NCBI GenBank assembly: GCA_947507155.1
Contig: CANNOC010000014.1
Location: 1,387-65,386, forward strand
Direction: 5' to 3'
DNA from: an uncultured Collinsella sp.
GTDB lineage: Bacteria > Actinomycetota > Coriobacteriia > Coriobacteriales > Coriobacteriaceae
DNA: 64,000 nucleotides
The notes under the pieces are model-generated. The model had not been told where the DNA came from. It was given only the letters and a program-made list of their open reading frames with translations, and ran no database searches. Each line of letters opens with the position of its first letter. The first letter of the stretch is position 1. Shown in pieces: positions 46,603 to 60,829 of the stretch. A program made the translations under genes and the position numbers.

Positions 46603-47724
46603 CTATTTACAGCGCGCCTTGGGCTGCTGCTGGGTGATGCAGTGAATGTTGCCGCCGCCGTAAATAACCTCGCGGGTCATGATACCGATGACTTCGCGGT
46701 CCGGATAAGCAGCCTGGATATCCTTGAGCGCCTGGGCGTCGTTAGGGTCACCGAACTGCGGCACAAGCACCGCTCCGTTGATGGGCAGGAAATTGAGATA
46801 GCTCGGCTCGAAGGCGTCCTCGGGGGTACGCGGCAGCACGCCCTCGACGGGATCAATCGTGCTGGCCTCCTCTTCGGTCATATATACCGAGGTCGCAGGC
46901 ATGATTACCTTGTGGACCTTGAGTTTGCGGCCACGGGCATCCGTCGTCTCGGAAAGCGTCTTATACGCCTCCTGGCACTCCTTGTAGAACTTATGGTTGG
47001 GATCATCGGTCCACATGCAGCAGACTTCGCCGGGTGCACTAAAGCATGCGACGTCGTCCACATGACCGTTCGTTTCGTACGGATCGATACCGTCCTTGAT
47101 CCAGATAACTTTCTCGATACCGAGGTACTCAGAGAGCTTCTTCTCAATCTGCTCCTTGGTGTACTGCGGGTTGCGGTCCTCGTTGAGCAGACACATCTCG
47201 GTGGTCACGACGGTGCCTTGACCATCACAGTTGAACGAGCCGCCCTCGAGGATGTAATCCTCGGGACGATAACGGTTAACCTGCTCAAGCTGTGCCACCT
47301 GCAGGCCAATGGAAGCGTCCTTGTCCCACGGGAAGTACAGGCCGTCAATGAAACCGCCGTAAGCATTAAAGTGGAAGTGCGAAAGAGCAACCTCACCATT
47401 GTCATTAACGAGGAACGCCGGGCCAGGGTCGCGAATCCAGCTGTCGTTGTACTCCATGTGGATAACGCGCACGTTCTCAACACCGTCGAAGATCTCGCAC
47501 ACCGCGGGGAAGTCCTCGGTGTTCACGCCTACCGTGATGGGCTGAAAGCGTGCAACGGTCTTAATAATCTCGGTGAAGACCTTCTGCGCCGGCTTGGCGC
47601 CGCAGCGCCACACGTCGGAGCGGTGCGGCCACAGAATCCAGGTGCGCTCCTGCTCCTCATACTCGCCGGGCATATAGAACCCGTCCTTCTTAGGCGTGGA
47701 CTCACTCTCGTAGATAGTCTTCAT
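46603..47724 (-). CDS. aguA: Agmatine deiminase (paralog 1)
   Basis: TPKKDGFYMPGE, WIRDPGP, LEGGS, ETNGHVDD, GGGNIHCITQQ; AAGGAG RBS before 47724. Confidence 0.92.
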   Translation of the reverse strand: MKTIYESESTPKKDGFYMPGEYEEQERTWILWPHRSDVWRCGAKPAQKVFTEIIKTVARFQPITVGVNTEDFPAVCEIFDGVENVRVIHMEYNDSWIRDPGPAFLVNDNGEVALSHFHFNAYGGFIDGLYFPWDKDASIGLQVAQLEQVNRYRPEDYILEGGSFNCDGQGTVVTTEMCLLNEDRNPQYTKEQIEKKLSEYLGIEKVIWIKDGIDPYETNGHVDDVACFSAPGEVCCMWTDDPNHKFYKECQEAYKTLSETTDARGRKLKVHKVIMPATSVYMTEEEASTIDPVEGVLPRTPEDAFEPSYLNFLPINGAVLVPQFGDPNDAQALKDIQAAYPDREVIGIMTREVIYGGGNIHCITQQQPKARCK

Positions 47725-47902
47725 TTCAAGCTCCTTGATCTCGGTGCTTTTGCTTGACGAGACCATAATGCAGCCGCACCGAGATGTCCTCAATGGTCCC
47801 TCGAGCCCCTTTCAGCGACCGCCGGTATACCATTCGCTGACCTAAAGTTCTATTCAGGCCGAGAACATGACATACTGGGTTCCACAATGGAAAGGACGCC
47901 CT

Positions 47903-48706
47903 ATGCCCCCATGCAATAAACAGCAGGCTATTGAGCTGGACAGTACGACCTGGACCGCCCTCAACGAGCTCGCGCTCGCGATCCACGCATCACACGGTGT
48001 CGATATGCTGCAAAAGGAGACACTCGAGGGAACGACAGGACTCGTGCCCCATCGGGTCGCCATGTTCGACCTGATCGAGGCGGCGGGCAGCGATGCCCCA
48101 CGCTACGTCCACCCCGTAAGCAGCGGAATGGACGACCGCGCACTGAGCGACTACTACAACCGCTACGCCGCGATGGACTATACAACATGGTCCTTTGACC
48201 TACATAGGGTCGGCGTCTACCGCGACCTCGACCTCGTCGACGTCGAGCGACGCGATGCCACGCCCATCTATCGCAAATGGATGGAACCCCAGGGCGTCTA
48301 CTTTGGCTGTACGGCCACGCTCGCGCACAACGACAGCCCGCTGGGAAGCATCACCCTGTTTCGCGAACGCACGGCCGGAGACTTCACCGACACCGAGCTC
48401 GCAATCCTGCTCGAAGTCGCTCGGCACGCGAGCCTCGCGCTCGCCAACCTCTATCCTCGGGGCATTAAACTCACCCAGACCGAAGACACAAACCAGCTGA
48501 ATGCTTTCATTGCAGAACACAATATCCAACCGCGCGAAGCCGAAGTCATGCGGCTCATGCTCGACGGCAAAACAAACAAACAGATGGCAAACGAGCTATT
48601 CATAAGCGAGTCAACCGTCAAGAAGCACGTCAACGCCATCTATCGCAAGCTCGGCGTCAGCAACCGCCTGGGCCTCATGACTGCCATGCAAAACATCCCG
48701 CGATAA
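47903..48706 (+). CDS. Cytoplasmic GAF-like sensor + LuxR HTH regulator
   Basis: REAEVM...[31 protein letters not shown]; divergent from aguA1. Confidence 0.88.
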
Positions 48707-48771
48707 AAAAGGGCGCCCTCCATGCGGAGAACGCCCTTTGATTTCGCCGTTGAATGAGAAGCGGCCCTACG

Positions 48772-58325: not shown

Positions 58326-58458
58326 GATGAGCTCCTTCGCTCAGTCTTGGACAGATCCGAGGCCCTAAGGTATTAAGGCAATTGCTTGGGCCTCGGTGAG
58401 CGGGCGGCAGGAGACGAGCATCCGCCGCCAGCAAACGTGCTTTTAGAAGCCTTGAGGC

Positions 58459-59532
58459 TTAGAGCTGCTCGAGAGCCTCGAGAGCGGCGTGGAGCTCAGC
58501 CTTGGCGGAGTACTCGACACCCTCGTCGTTGAGCGGAGTGCGCTTGCCCAGGGCGGCAAGAAGAGCACGGATGGAGTGCTTGCGGTTCTCGGCCTCGACC
58601 CAGCACAGGGAGCGCTCGGGATCGTCCATGACCTCGTCGACGACCTCCTCATTGCGGGTGGCCGGCAGGCAGTGCATGAACTTGGAGTTGGGGCCGGCGA
58701 AGTTCATCATGTCCATGGTGACCTGATACTTGGGATAGAACACGTCCATGTAGTTCTCGCCCGAGACCTCCTCGTCGTACAGGCCATACCACACGTCGGT
58801 GTAGATGAAGTCGGCGCCCTTGATGCACTCGATGTCGTCGGAGATGACAACCGAGCCGCCGGAGACCTTGCAGTTCTCCTCGGCGATGGCCATCATCTGC
58901 TTGCCGAACTCGGCGCGCTCCTCGACGGTGCCAACGTGCAGGCCACCGTCGGGAATCTGGTGGCCCTTAGGTCCAAACTGGACAAACTTCATGCCGACCT
59001 TGGAGGCGATGAACATGAGGGAGACGCAGACCTGGGTGGCGTCGCCGATGAAGGCCAGGGTGCAGTCCTCGATCTTCTTGCCCTCGGGGAGGTTCTCGAG
59101 CATGGTCATGAGGTCGCCCATCTCCTGCGTGGGATGGTTGAACTCGGACATGCCGTTGATGACGGGCACAGCGGAGCCCTCGGCGAGGCCGACGACGTCC
59201 TTGTGACGGTCAACGCGAGCCATCATGATATCGAGCAGCGAGCCCATAACGCGAGCGGTGTCGCCCAGGGACTCGTGACCGCCGAGCTGGATGGTGCCAG
59301 GGCCATAGAACTGAGCATGGCCGCCGAGGTCGGTCATAGCAGTCTCGAAGGAAAGACGGGTGCGGGTGGAGACCTGCTGGAAGATCATGCCAAGGCTCTT
59401 GTTACGGAGCAGGTGCGGATAATAACCGTCAACCTTGATGGCCTTCTTCATTGCCAGGCCAAGATCCTCGATAGCCAGGATCTGCTCTTTGGTGAAGTCG
59501 TTGGTGTCGATGAAATCCTTAGGCAGTGCCAT
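58459..59532 (-). CDS. aguB: Putrescine carbamoyltransferase
   Basis: [29 protein letters not shown], extra C-terminal helix; aguD/aguA context. Confidence 0.88.
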
Positions 59533-59863
59533 ATCGATTTCCTTTCCGCCGGTCTTGCCGACTATTAACTATGAGGCGCTCGAACATCACGCCTCGTGTT
59601 GACAAGACCATCATTCACCCGTATGCAATTTTTACCTAGTTTATTCGGGATTAAAGACTGTTCACGGAGTTACACCCTCTCTAATCCAATATAAACCCGC
59701 AGGTCAAGAGTTTACAGGGGGTTTACCGTCTGGAACCGCGAACGGTATACGGCTATGCTGTATCTTGGCGTTTAATCCGCAATGGAACGACCGGCGGAGG
59801 CATGTATACCCGGGGGATATAGCGGGCTCCATAAGGGATCAAAATGAGACAGGACGGTGACAG

Positions 59864-60829
59864 ATGGACACACTCATGTTCTTCTATACCCAAGCGATAC
59901 TCGTAATCTGCATTGTGACGGCAGTGCTTTCGCTTGCCGCCTATGCCTCGTCCCGTCGACGCTTCTTTATCTATGGCAGTGGCGTTTTTATTTGCTACGC
60001 CATCGAAATGACTGAGATCTTCTTTTTTGAATACACGTTGCAAAACGAGAGTTTTCCGGCCAGCGACTATTACTCAATTACCATGCCTGTGTTGCGGACC
60101 CTTGTGGCGACCGCTTCACAGGCTTTTATTTGGCTGATTGCCATGGACTTGCTCGATAAGCATTCTAAAAAGCAGTTCGCTATCCCCGTCTTAACGTTTT
60201 TGCTGTGCGAGTCGCTGGCTATCGTCGCAGTCCCCTCCGGCCCCATGCGTCAGTGGATCTACTACACGATACGCCAGGCATTCCTTGTCTTTGTGGGACT
60301 GTATATCTTATGGACGGCTCATAAGAGTACAAAGGTTGAGCTGAAGGCACGCGTCAACAACCAGCGAAAGCACCTGATTATCGGCGCTATTCTGGTCGGT
60401 TGCATCGTTGCCGAGGATTTCTACAACATCCTGGTCATCCCCATGAGTCTGGCACCCTCTTGGCTGCAGCTATATCTGTCCGAGCGCAACTTTAGCGAGA
60501 ACTTCTTTGCGTGCTACTTTGCGATTCTGTTGATTATCTACTCCTACCACGTGCTTTCAATCCGCATGCAGGAGGCGCCCGAGGAAAAGAACGTCAGCGA
60601 TCTTGATCGACACATCGAAGAGCAGATGCCCTTCTATCGCAACGCCTACAAGCTCTCCAACCGCGAGACCGAGGTTATGCGTCTGGTCGTACTGGGCAAG
60701 TCGAACCAAGAGATCGCTGACGAACTCTTCCTTGCTGTGGGCACCGTCAAGACCCACATCCACAACATCCTGGTCAAAACCGAGCAGCAAAATCGCACCA
60801 CGCTCATCCTCCACTTCTGGAAGCGATGA
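59864..60829 (+). CDS. aguR: Transmembrane LuxR regulator of agmatine deiminase operon
   Basis: ~7 TM, YLSERNFSEN, LSNRETEV...TVKTHIHNI; divergent from aguB. Confidence 0.8.
   Translation: MDTLMFFYTQAILVICIVTAVLSLAAYASSRRRFFIYGSGVFICYAIEMTEIFFFEYTLQNESFPASDYYSITMPVLRTLVATASQAFIWLIAMDLLDKHSKKQFAIPVLTFLLCESLAIVAVPSGPMRQWIYYTIRQAFLVFVGLYILWTAHKSTKVELKARVNNQRKHLIIGAILVGCIVAEDFYNILVIPMSLAPSWLQLYLSERNFSENFFACYFAILLIIYSYHVLSIRMQEAPEEKNVSDLDRHIEEQMPFYRNAYKLSNRETEVMRLVVLGKSNQEIADELFLAVGTVKTHIHNILVKTEQQNRTTLILHFWKR

What the first reader, a model, noticed from the sequence alone, without database searches (positions are those of the whole stretch)
46603..60829. Expanded dual agmatine/polyamine island with three LuxR sensors
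Seen: canonical aguR / aguB-aguD-aguA (55.4-60.8 kb, very high GC3) adjoins a compositionally different block: a second APC permease, small ORF, second TM-LuxR, amidohydrolase, MATE, a cytoplasmic GAF-LuxR and a second deiminase. Known: the AgDI pathway in Enterococcus faecalis, Streptococcus mutans and Lactococcus lactis is aguR-aguBDAC. Inference: the second block handles a different guanidino or acylated polyamine, sensed both outside (TM-LuxR) and inside (GAF-LuxR), making this a candidate undescribed catabolic pathway.
Basis: partly seen in the sequence, partly recalled or inferred. Interest (0 to 1): 0.7.

Follow-up and report, generated by a model that had tools for sequence, protein, structure and literature searches.

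The report
Expanded agmatine-breakdown gene island in Collinsella
A gut Collinsella carries the known energy-yielding agmatine-breakdown operon next to three add-on cassettes (a second transporter, a second deiminase with its own internal sensor, and a sensor–hydrolase–efflux unit) that recur beside agmatine genes in other gut bacteria but whose chemistry is still unknown.

Summary
Window 46.6-60.8 kb (Collinsella aerofaciens group) holds aguR / aguB-aguD1-aguA1, then aguD2, a conserved 63-aa ORF, a second membrane LuxR (an AguR paralogue), a YtcJ-like amidohydrolase, a MATE pump, a cytoplasmic GAF-type LuxR and aguA2. The second block has lower GC3 (0.57-0.75 against 0.85-0.93).

For it:
- Amidohydrolase, MATE and membrane-LuxR units lie beside agmatine genes in at least six Coriobacteriia lineages and one Lachnospiraceae.
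- Published E. lenta RNA-seq shows agmatine inducing the type-1 operon, the adjacent MATE and a YtcJ-like amidohydrolase.
- In the same data the type-2 operon, whose products are the closest relatives of aguD2/aguA2, stays almost silent.

Against it:
- aguA2 is closer than aguA1 to the solved agmatine deiminases, and an aguA2-type gene follows aguD1 in one relative.
- The cassettes are separable. LuxR2-amidohydrolase-MATE is a clean 4.4-kb indel between near-identical strains.
- Dual deiminases and multiple agu operons are already published.

My verdict is a modular agmatine island, a new variant of a known system. The amidohydrolase substrate is unknown; my best guess is an agmatine-related amide or ureide.

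The scan had noted the amidohydrolase unit and the small ORF before, on this same window only.

The parts
59864..60829 (+). aguR: membrane-spanning LuxR-type regulator, divergent from aguB
   Evidence: GerE domain at residues 264-317. Four or more strongly hydrophobic segments in the N-terminal 235 aa. Same position and architecture as the LAB AguR, a transmembrane agmatine sensor (PMC4664769).
58459..59532 (-). aguB: putrescine carbamoyltransferase, the only copy in the island
   Evidence: TIGR04384 538 bits against a cut-off of 500.
56886..58325 (-). aguD1: APC-family permease in the agmatine/putrescine antiporter position
   Evidence: PF13520 153 bits. Lies between aguB and aguA1. Its 69% homologue in E. 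lenta, RS03395, is induced by agmatine.
55395..56600 (-). aguA1: type-1 agmatine deiminase with an insertion of about 25 aa (the ORF extends to 56765)
   Evidence: TIGR03380 455 bits in two stretches. GGGNIHCITQQ Cys motif is kept. GC3 is 0.93.
55319..55341 (-). terminator-like hairpin after aguA1; its inverted copy lies at 60918-60940 after aguR
   Evidence: 23-nt inverted repeat, 91% complementary. Also listed in the terminator scan. The scan overall is not above its shuffles.
53503..54894 (-). aguD2: second APC permease, apparently monocistronic, 500 nt after aguA1
   Evidence: 57% identical to aguD1. Its 57-60% homologues lie inside aguB2-aguD2-aguA2 operons in Eggerthellaceae.
53212..53403 (+). 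conserved 63-aa ORF convergent with aguD2
   Evidence: AAAGGAG ribosome-binding site. Full-length and without stop codons in 60 of 75 Collinsella hits, down to 65% identity. Retained in strains that lack the cassette. A 48% homologue lies just downstream of aguD2, convergent with it, in another genus.
52129..53121 (-). LuxR2: AguR-paralogous membrane LuxR regulator (the ORF extends to 53349)
   Evidence: 28% identity to aguR across the membrane domain and HTH. GerE domain. Five hydrophobic segments. A 60-68% allele occurs in 31 of 80 loci, with divergence concentrated in the sensor domain.
50194..51822 (-). YtcJ-like (COG1574, PF07969) metal amidohydrolase, cytoplasmic, 542 aa (the ORF extends to 51999)
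   Evidence: PF07969 317 bits. Best PDB matches are uncharacterised proteins 3ICJ and 3IGH. Metal ligands H68, H70, K291, H343, H375 and D440 are invariant among 24 homologues. No signal peptide.
48772..50154 (-). MATE efflux transporter, 40 nt downstream of the amidohydrolase
   Evidence: PF01554 in two stretches. Its 40% homologue between the two E. lenta agu operons is RS03380, induced by agmatine at log2FC 4.4.
48759..53198 (.). 4.44-kb cassette (MATE, amidohydrolase, LuxR2) that is an indel relative to close relatives
   Evidence: Two Collinsella genomes have 334 bp of unrelated sequence here. The left flank is 95-96% identical in nucleotides. The right flank, over the small ORF, is 72-80%, rising to 95% in aguD2.
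47903..48706 (+). LuxRc: soluble GAF-type ligand-binding domain plus LuxR HTH, divergent from aguA2 (the ORF starts at 47867)
   Evidence: The pairing with aguA2 recurs in other lineages. A 53-56% alternative allele occurs in 16 of 80 loci.
46603..47724 (-). aguA2: type-2 agmatine deiminase without the insertion (the ORF extends to 47793)
   Evidence: TIGR03380 497 bits. 469 and 459 bits against PDB 2EWO and 2JER. Nearest relatives are Atopobiaceae at 87% and Ca. C. stercoripullorum at 76%.

Best explanation
This is a modular agmatine-utilisation island.

Shown or strongly inferred:
- The core is aguR / aguB-aguD1-aguA1, the classical ATP-yielding agmatine deiminase route. Membrane AguR senses external agmatine. 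AguD1 exchanges agmatine for putrescine. AguA1 makes N-carbamoylputrescine. AguB makes carbamoyl phosphate, and the unlinked carbamate kinase turns that into ATP.
- Three separable accessory cassettes are bolted on: (a) aguD2 with a 63-aa ORF, (b) LuxR2-amidohydrolase-MATE, and (c) LuxRc / aguA2.
- aguD2 and aguA2 are what remains of a second, 'type-2' agu operon. That operon is intact (aguB2-aguD2-aguA2-arcC) in Eggerthellaceae and has its own cytoplasmic regulator.

Inferred mechanism:
- LuxR2, an AguR paralogue, senses an agmatine-like compound outside the cell and switches on the amidohydrolase and MATE.
- The cytoplasmic binuclear-metal amidohydrolase cleaves an amide or ureido bond in an agmatine-related compound, possibly imported by AguD2. 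This yields an amine that enters or leaves the core pathway.
- MATE extrudes the co-product or a cationic by-product.
- LuxRc senses an intracellular metabolite and adds AguA2 deiminase capacity.

The substrate of the amidohydrolase is not known.
For: -
- Modularity:
  - Of 80 Collinsella loci, 48 are complete and 10 lack LuxRc/aguA2. Thirteen carry an extra lipoprotein-amidohydrolase/LuxR pair.
  - The 4.44-kb cassette is a clean indel.
  - In one Collinsella genome a different LuxR-amidohydrolase pair occupies the slot, and the 80% orthologous cassette sits elsewhere.
- Recurrent linkage to agu genes:
  - 3 of 13 loci chosen only by amidohydrolase score are agu-linked.
  - 3 of 4 more distant orthologues chosen by score and contig length are agu-linked.
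  - Rubneribacter has aguB2-aguD2-aguA2, MATE-amidohydrolase-MATE, LuxR, aguR and aguB1.
  - On the amidohydrolase tree the 'agu-linked' label needs 3-4 changes against 8.6-9.1 when shuffled.
- Experimental support from a relative: in E. lenta DSM 2243, agmatine induces ptcA1, APC1 and aguA1 (log2FC 6.5-6.8). It also induces the adjacent MATE (4.4), a YtcJ-like amidohydrolase (4.2) and that enzyme's neighbouring membrane LuxR (2.7). Source is PMC10234575 Table S9. I mapped the tags onto the genome by gene order and by a unique DUF488 landmark.
- The exported amidohydrolase clade has no MATE partner, whereas the cytoplasmic clades always have one or two. This fits release of a product that must be exported when hydrolysis is intracellular.
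Against: - No experiment on Collinsella exists.
- The E. lenta enzyme belongs to a different, exported clade, about 34% identical to the window's enzyme.
- The membrane domain of the E. lenta regulator is unrelated to that of LuxR2.
- Most YtcJ-like paralogues in Coriobacteriia are not agu-linked, and one 68% orthologue sits inside a shikimate operon.
- No shared operator motif was found among the island's promoters.
- MATE pumps usually export cations rather than acyl acids.
- The slot between aguA1 and the DAHP synthase gene is a variable hot spot, so some of the linkage could be hitch-hiking.
Confidence: 0.5

Rival explanations
1. Ureide bypass. The amidohydrolase is a non-orthologous N-carbamoylputrescine hydrolase, or a hydrolase for other N-substituted ureas made by AguA2. 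AguA plus the amidohydrolase would then convert agmatine, or an analogue, to the amine plus CO2 and 2 NH3 without ATP. MATE would export the amine.
For: - The genome has no CN-hydrolase-type N-carbamoylputrescine amidase.
- In Schaedlerella, MATE-amidohydrolase lies 5 kb from LuxRc/aguA2 with no aguB or aguD within 10 kb.
- In an Atopobiaceae MAG the order is aguD2-aguA2-LuxR2-MATE-amidohydrolase-MATE with no aguB visible.
- From my own knowledge, YtcJ-like enzymes include phenylurea and N-substituted formamide hydrolases. NfdA is listed among PF07969 members in the 2026 preprint.
Against: - It wastes the ATP that is the point of the pathway in these anaerobes.
- Collinsella always keeps aguB.
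- The cassette occurs without aguA2 in 10 of 80 loci, and aguA2 occurs without the cassette.
- The agmatine-induced E. lenta enzyme is an exported lipoprotein, a poor location for a pathway intermediate.
Confidence: 0.2
2. Redundancy plus neighbours. aguD2 and aguA2 are ordinary agmatine paralogues kept for dosage or different regulation, as with the Listeria and LAB aguA1/aguA2 pairs. The LuxR2-amidohydrolase-MATE cassette is an unrelated xenobiotic or metabolite module that merely inserts in a permissive hot spot.
For: - aguA2 is a better match than aguA1 to the solved agmatine deiminases, and an aguA2-type gene follows aguD1 in a relative.
- The cassettes are gained and lost independently.
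- The 80% orthologous cassette is unlinked to agu genes in one Collinsella genome.
- Coriobacteriia carry many membrane LuxR-plus-enzyme pairs for unrelated substrates (PMC9734109).
Against: - Linkage of three different amidohydrolase clades to agu genes recurs across three Coriobacteriia families and one Firmicute.
- A homologous MATE and a YtcJ-like amidohydrolase are agmatine-inducible in E. lenta.
- LuxR2 is specifically an AguR paralogue.
Confidence: 0.2
3. Cation-stress or overflow module. High external agmatine or other organic cations are sensed by LuxR2. MATE pumps excess agmatine, putrescine or analogues out, and the amidohydrolase removes a toxic side product. The function would be tolerance rather than catabolism.
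For: - In E. lenta, agmatine also induces dltABCD, an MBOAT gene and other transporters, a typical response to cationic envelope stress.
- MATE pumps typically export organic cations (general knowledge).
Against: - It does not explain why a hydrolase is always paired with the pump.
- It does not explain why an exported lipoprotein version exists without a pump.
Confidence: 0.1

Closest known systems
aguR/aguBDAC agmatine deiminase clusters of Enterococcus faecalis, Streptococcus mutans and Lactococcus lactis
   Same: Divergent LuxR-type membrane regulator, then putrescine carbamoyltransferase, APC antiporter and agmatine deiminase in the same order. The model families pass their curated cut-offs. 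AguR is a transmembrane agmatine sensor (PMC4664769).
   Different: There is no carbamate kinase in the operon. aguA1 carries an insertion of about 25 aa. The island adds a second permease, a second deiminase, two more LuxR regulators, a YtcJ-like amidohydrolase and a MATE pump.
Dual deiminase loci (aguA1/aguA2) of Listeria monocytogenes
   Same: Two agmatine deiminase paralogues in one locus. In Listeria only AguA1 was shown to be active (PMC7698193, citing Cheng et al. 2013).
   Different: Here aguA2 has its own divergent GAF-LuxR regulator and keeps the catalytic Cys motif. It resembles the characterised enzymes more than aguA1 does. The two genes are separated by unrelated cassettes.
Multiple agu operons of Eggerthella lenta DSM 2243 (Noecker et al. 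2023, PMC10234575)
   Same: A type-1 and a type-2 operon lie side by side, with a MATE pump and an AguR-like LuxR between them. Agmatine is an energy source. Only one operon responds strongly to agmatine, and the authors suggest another may act on a related compound.
   Different: In Collinsella the type-2 operon is broken up: there is no aguB2 and no arcC, and aguD2 and aguA2 are 6 kb apart. A cytoplasmic amidohydrolase is built into the island. In E. lenta the agmatine-induced amidohydrolase is unlinked and exported. The paper does not discuss the amidohydrolase or the MATE.
YtcJ-like / PF07969 amidohydrolases, including the Bilophila metal-dependent bile salt hydrolase (bioRxiv 10.64898/2026.04.05.716592)
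   Same: Same Pfam family and the same six metal ligands plus the auxiliary His. This is a gut bacterial enzyme family that cleaves acyl-amine amide bonds.
   Different: The window's enzyme is not secreted and has no extra C-terminal domain. The best solved relatives are uncharacterised (3ICJ, E 1e-30). Most of the family has no known substrate.
Membrane-spanning LuxR regulators of Coriobacteriia (DadR, HcdR, CadR; PMC9734109)
   Same: One-component membrane sensor fused to a LuxR HTH, encoded next to the metabolic gene it activates.
   Different: Those regulators have 10-12 helices. aguR and LuxR2 have a domain of about 250 aa with about 5-7 hydrophobic segments, and they are AguR-type.

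Membership tests
Agmatine deiminase pathway cluster (aguR/aguBDAC) | Agmatine deiminase of the TIGR03380 equivalog with the catalytic Cys | tested here: met
   aguA2 scores 497 bits and aguA1 455 bits against a cut-off of 382. Both keep GGGNIHCITQQ, aligned to 2EWO.
Agmatine deiminase pathway cluster (aguR/aguBDAC) | Putrescine carbamoyltransferase (TIGR04384) | tested here: met
   538 bits against a cut-off of 500. One copy only.
Agmatine deiminase pathway cluster (aguR/aguBDAC) | Agmatine/putrescine antiporter between aguB and aguA | tested here: inconclusive
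   An APC permease is in the right position, but no family-specific model exists. All NCBIfam hits are far below their cut-offs. Its E. lenta homologue is agmatine-induced.
Agmatine deiminase pathway cluster (aguR/aguBDAC) | Carbamate kinase (aguC) in the operon | tested here: not met
   There is none in the island. The single arcC of the genome is on contig C35, at 365 bits.
Agmatine deiminase pathway cluster (aguR/aguBDAC) | Divergent membrane LuxR-type regulator AguR | tested here: met
   GerE HTH plus a hydrophobic N-domain, divergent from aguB. Direct sequence comparison with the LAB AguR was not possible.
YtcJ-like metal-dependent amidohydrolase (PF07969 / COG1574) | Family profile match and a complete binuclear metal site (HxH, carboxylated Lys, His, His, Asp) | tested here: met
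   PF07969 317 bits. H68, H70, K291, H343, H375 and D440 are invariant among 24 homologues.
Metal-dependent bile salt hydrolase (Bilophila type) | Secreted, with an extra C-terminal domain, and membership of the metalloBSH sequence cluster | tested here: not met
   No signal peptide, and 542 aa without an extra domain.
MATE efflux transporter | Two MatE repeats | tested here: met
   PF01554 in two stretches, 101 bits. TIGR00797 scores 100 bits, below its 147-bit cut-off.
Acyl-homoserine-lactone-type LuxR receptors (Autoind_bind + GerE) | PF03472 autoinducer-binding domain | tested here: not met
   Only 1 of 45 family members reaches E 0.0066. The fold nonetheless resembles SdiA and CviR (Foldseek E 1e-9, TM about 0.5). 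It works like a ligand-binding LuxR solo but is not a member of that family.
GAF-domain LuxR regulators | PF01590 GAF domain N-terminal to GerE | tested here: inconclusive
   The window's protein scores 16.8 bits against a cut-off of 22.4. 31 of 45 homologues match at E<=0.01, the best at 8e-7. GAF structures appear among the Foldseek hits.
10-12-TM LuxR regulators of E. lenta | N-terminal domain with 10-12 transmembrane helices | tested here: not met
   aguR has 321 aa and LuxR2 about 330 aa, with 4-5 strongly hydrophobic 19-mers in about 250 aa. No dedicated topology predictor was available.

The most novel reading that the evidence does not exclude
The YtcJ-like amidohydrolase with its MATE pump(s) and AguR-paralogous sensor is an undescribed, widely distributed branch of guanidino-amine metabolism in gut anaerobes (Coriobacteriia and some Lachnospiraceae). 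It could be a deacylase that frees agmatine from dietary, host or microbial conjugates such as acetyl-, hydroxycinnamoyl- or bile-acid-linked agmatine or putrescine. It could instead be a new type of N-carbamoylputrescine or ureide hydrolase. In either case the type-2 aguD2/aguA2 genes would be tuned to its product rather than to free external agmatine.
Probability: 0.35. Interest if true: 0.65.

Novelty: new variant of a known kind. Interest (0 to 1): 0.5.

Why it matters
- Agmatine and putrescine are host-active gut metabolites, and Collinsella is a prevalent, disease-associated gut genus.
- The island shows that in Coriobacteriia the agmatine pathway is a modular, strain-variable system. 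A hydrolase/efflux module of unknown chemistry recurs with it across families.
- A homologous MATE pump and a distant paralogue of the hydrolase already appear, without comment, among the agmatine-induced genes of E. lenta.
- Naming the hydrolase substrate would assign a function to a large uncharacterised branch of PF07969. It could also reveal a route by which conjugated or modified polyamines are recycled in the gut.
- Natural strains with and without the cassette, and genetic tools for Coriobacteriia, make the question directly testable.

Tried and rejected
- **Shared operator search.** I compared the seven intergenic regions for the best 18-mers against shuffles. Nothing rose above chance.
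- **Promoter and terminator scan.** Counts were not above the shuffles. Only the paired hairpin at 55319-55341 and 60918-60940 stood out.
- **Rfam scan of 45-61.5 kb at E<=1.** No riboswitch was found, in particular no guanidine or polyamine element.
- **Endogenous agmatine synthesis as the role for aguA2.** The genome has no SpeA and no pyruvoyl arginine decarboxylase, so I did not pursue this.
- **'LuxR2 remnant' in cassette-free strains.** This turned out to be the antisense of the small ORF, caused by the over-extended LuxR2 ORF.
- **Locus-tag arithmetic to map E. lenta tags.** It was ambiguous, with an offset that differs by 10. I replaced it with gene order and a unique DUF488 landmark.
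- **Searching the Schaedlerella genome for aguB or a carbamoylputrescine amidase.** The record is not held.
- **Bilophila-type bile salt hydrolase.** I considered and rejected this (not secreted, no C-terminal domain).
- **12-TM LuxR class.** I considered and rejected this for aguR and LuxR2.

Full report
**Organism and gene content**

The window is contig C14 of a 2.22-Mb, 99.8%-complete genome. All 80 best loci found with the amidohydrolase are Collinsella, mostly the aerofaciens group.

- aguR (+)
- aguB-aguD1-aguA1 (-)
- aguD2 (-)
- a membrane LuxR, 'LuxR2' (-)
- an Amidohydro_3 protein (-)
- a MATE pump (-)
- a soluble LuxR, 'LuxRc' (+)
- aguA2 (-)

Both deiminases pass the agmatine-deiminase equivalog cut-off. 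aguB passes the putrescine carbamoyltransferase cut-off.

Paralogue identities are 46% for aguA1/aguA2, 57% for aguD1/aguD2 and 28% for aguR/LuxR2. The last covers the membrane domain as well as the HTH.

The compositional contrast is real. GC3 is 0.85-0.93 in the core and 0.57-0.75 in the second block.

Several ORFs are over-extended at the 5' end. Homologue lengths and alignments place the starts at 56600 (aguA1), 47724 (aguA2), 51822 (amidohydrolase, 542 aa), 53121 (LuxR2) and 47903 (LuxRc).

The island has no carbamate kinase. The only arcC is on a 3-kb contig.

**The three regulators**

aguR and LuxR2 have a hydrophobic N-domain of about 250 aa and a GerE HTH. This is the architecture of the LAB AguR, a transmembrane one-component sensor of external agmatine (PMC4664769). 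It is not the 10-12-helix class described in E. lenta (PMC9734109).

LuxRc has no hydrophobic segment. 31 of 45 of its homologues hit the GAF model. Its AlphaFold model has pLDDT 90.5. The model best matches full-length SdiA, CviR, RhlR, QscR and TraR, and then GAF domains. 'Three LuxR sensors, two outside and one inside' is therefore a fair description.

**The deiminases**

aguA2 scores higher than aguA1 against the solved S. mutans and E. faecalis enzymes, at 469/459 against 417/402 bits. aguA1 carries an insertion of about 25 aa. That insertion marks a 'type-1' lineage present in many Coriobacteriia.

The relatives of aguA2 are Atopobiaceae (87%), other Coriobacteriales (about 81%) and Ca. 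Collinsella stercoripullorum (76%). Below these come Eggerthellaceae at about 60%.

Context in relatives:
- One lineage has aguC-aguB-aguA1-NhaC-aguD1, then a peptidase on the opposite strand, then aguA2.
- In Ca. C. stercoripullorum an aguA2-type gene directly follows the 90% orthologue of aguD1.

By sequence and by context, aguA2 looks like a genuine agmatine deiminase. Two deiminases in one locus is already known from Listeria (PMC7698193).

**Modularity within Collinsella**

Counts among the 80 loci:

| Arrangement | Loci |
|---|---|
| Full arrangement | 48 |
| MATE directly to DAHP synthase, no LuxRc/aguA2 | 10 |
| Extra LuxR-amidohydrolase pair further downstream | 13 |
| 53-56% allele of LuxRc | 16 |
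| 60-68% allele of LuxR2 | 31 |

In the loci with the alternative LuxR2 allele, the neighbouring enzymes stay 86-97% identical. The divergence sits in the sensor domains.

Two sampled genomes have aguR/aguB-aguD1-aguA1-aguD2-small ORF-LuxRc/aguA2 without the cassette. Alignment puts the indel at 48759-53198, which is 4.44 kb in the window against 334 bp of unrelated sequence in those genomes.

In another genome a different membrane-LuxR/amidohydrolase pair fills the slot. The 80% orthologous LuxR2-amidohydrolase-MATE cassette sits on another contig there, with no agu gene within 9 kb.

The 'second block' is therefore three cassettes, not one unit.

**Linkage outside Collinsella**

I fetched thirteen loci chosen only by amidohydrolase score from other genomes, and three are agu-linked:
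- A second Coriobacteriaceae genus has aguR/aguB-aguD1-aguA1-aguD2-amidohydrolase-LuxR2-MATE-amidohydrolase-amidohydrolase.
- One Eggerthellaceae genome has type-2 and type-1 agu gene sets on either side of MATE-amidohydrolase-MATE-LuxR-aguR, with LuxRc and a third agu-like gene set also lying between them.
- A second Eggerthellaceae genome has aguB2-aguD2-aguA2 and MATE-amidohydrolase-MATE-LuxR-aguR, ending in aguB at the contig edge.

Rubneribacter shows the same layout.

Of four more distant orthologues chosen by score and contig length, three are linked:
- an Atopobiaceae MAG: aguD2-aguA2-LuxR2-MATE-amidohydrolase-MATE
- a metagenome lineage: aguB-aguD1-aguA1 / LuxRc / aguA2 / GNAT / LuxR2-MATE-amidohydrolase-permease
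- Schaedlerella arabinosiphila, a Lachnospiraceae: MATE-amidohydrolase 5 kb from LuxRc/aguA2

The fourth lies inside a shikimate operon.

On a tree of 26-27 amidohydrolases, three clades each contain agu-linked members from several genera. The label needs 3-4 changes against about 9 when shuffled. Three rows were fetched because they lay near aguA, so this statistic is biased upward.

Most other paralogues are unlinked. The association is recurrent, not universal.

**Experimental evidence in a relative**

One sampled genome is E. lenta DSM 2243, identified by ACV accessions and its length of 3,632,260 bp.

Its gene order is MerR, ptcA2-APC2-aguA2-arcC, MATE, LuxR, ptcA1-APC1-aguA1-arcC. This order matches the locus tags in Table S9 of Noecker et al. 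2023 (PMC10234575) only one way:

| Tag | Gene | log2FC with agmatine |
|---|---|---|
| RS03365 | APC2 | 1.3 |
| RS03375 | arcC | 1.1 |
| RS03380 | MATE, there named a flippase-family protein | 4.4 |
| RS03390-03400 | ptcA1, APC1, aguA1 | 6.5-6.8 |

Agmatine therefore strongly induces the type-1 operon and the adjacent MATE. The type-2 operon, whose products are the closest relatives of the window's aguD2 and aguA2, is almost silent. Its base means are about 30-40, against 13,000-29,000 for type-1.

The sixth most induced gene is 'amidohydrolase' RS06445 (4.2), together with its neighbour, an HTH regulator, RS06450 (2.7). I map RS06445 to the YtcJ-like protein ACV55259 for three reasons:
- The product names of the two neighbours fit.
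- The membrane LuxR is adjacent to it.
- The genome's only DUF488 gene (RS06405) lies 5.5 kb, about eight genes, upstream.

This enzyme has a twin-arginine signal and a lipobox. It belongs to the exported clade I, which is 68% identical to the extra Collinsella pair. The window's genome lacks that clade. The sensor domain of the E. lenta regulator is unrelated to that of LuxR2. The support for the window's own cassette is therefore indirect.

**What the amidohydrolase might do**

It is a complete binuclear-metal enzyme. H68, H70, K291, H343, H375 and D440 are invariant, and it is cytoplasmic.

Its best solved relatives are uncharacterised. The PF07969 family is mostly uncharacterised too. Known activities include N-substituted formamide deformylase, aminoacylases and, newly, a secreted bile salt hydrolase.

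One pattern is suggestive. Exported clade-I enzymes never have a MATE partner. Cytoplasmic clades II and III always have one or two. This fits hydrolysis of a conjugate whose second product must be expelled when the reaction is intracellular.

The rival is a ureide bypass that hydrolyses N-carbamoylputrescine:
- For it: the genome lacks a classical carbamoylputrescine amidase, and the Schaedlerella locus shows no aguB nearby.
- Against it: it wastes ATP, and it fits the exported clade poorly.

I commit to the conjugate/amide-ureide model in general form at about 0.5. I rate the specific deacylase version at about 0.35.

**Null results**

- No shared operator.
- No riboswitch.
- No SpeA or pyruvoyl arginine decarboxylase.

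**Verdict**

The core pathway, dual deiminases and multiple operons are known. The recurring sensor-amidohydrolase-MATE accessory cassette and its tie to agmatine are not described in the literature I could search. This is a new variant of a known kind, of moderate interest, and readily testable.

Noticed in passing
window 53212-53403 (+): A 63-aa ORF with a strong ribosome-binding site, convergent with aguD2. It is intact in 60 of 75 Collinsella hits, down to 65% identity, with an invariant CPYLGH[VI]P[YF]FAPK motif. Strains without the amidohydrolase cassette keep it, and a 48% homologue lies in the same position in another genus. It travels with aguD2, not with LuxR2. It is probably a real micro-protein of unknown role.
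   Followed up: partly
window 55319-55341 and 60918-60940: The same 23-nt hairpin-forming sequence occurs in inverted orientation just after aguA1 and just after aguR. It brackets the core aguR/aguB-aguD1-aguA1 unit. It implies that aguD2 is not co-transcribed with the core.
   Followed up: no
LuxR2 52129-53121; LuxRc 47903-48706; loci L006-L085: The two accessory regulators are far more polymorphic than the enzymes beside them. LuxR2 has a 60-68% allele in 31 of 80 loci, and LuxRc has a 53-56% allele in 16 of 80. The divergence is concentrated in the sensor domains, which suggests shifting ligand specificity or allele replacement.
   Followed up: partly
L006:18936-20740, L109:9831-11489, L115:7969-9780: A second amidohydrolase clade has a twin-arginine signal and a lipobox and is paired with its own membrane LuxR. 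In 13 of 80 Collinsella loci it sits between the kinase fragment and DAHP synthase. It is 68% identical to E. lenta Elen ACV55259, which I map to the agmatine-induced RS06445. The window's genome lacks it.
   Followed up: partly
L096, L107 and L111 (two Eggerthellaceae genomes): Super-islands hold three or four carbamoyltransferase-permease-deiminase triplets of decreasing similarity (down to 22-45%). Further YtcJ-like amidohydrolases lie in the first (L096, L107). They look like a battery of modules for different guanidino compounds.
   Followed up: no
L117:6543-7187 and L119:12943-13476: A GNAT acetyltransferase lies next to the LuxR2-MATE-amidohydrolase unit in two unrelated lineages. This hints at acetylated amines as substrates or products.
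   Followed up: no
L118:10001-11629; window 43973-45004: A 68% orthologue of the amidohydrolase is embedded in a shikimate-pathway operon in another genome. In the window the island abuts a DAHP synthase gene. This may be a relic of the same insertion site.
   Followed up: no
literature: PMC13253324: In co-culture experiments putrescine appeared only when C. aerofaciens was grown with E. coli or K. aerogenes. The authors attribute this to ornithine cross-feeding. Agmatine exported by the enterobacteria and converted by this Collinsella island is an alternative they did not test.
   Followed up: no
window 45361-46577: A kinase C-lobe fragment and an upstream 205-aa ORF lie between aguA2 and DAHP synthase. 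They vary in presence and identity (61-99%) among the Collinsella loci. This fits a variable hot spot at this end of the island.
   Followed up: no
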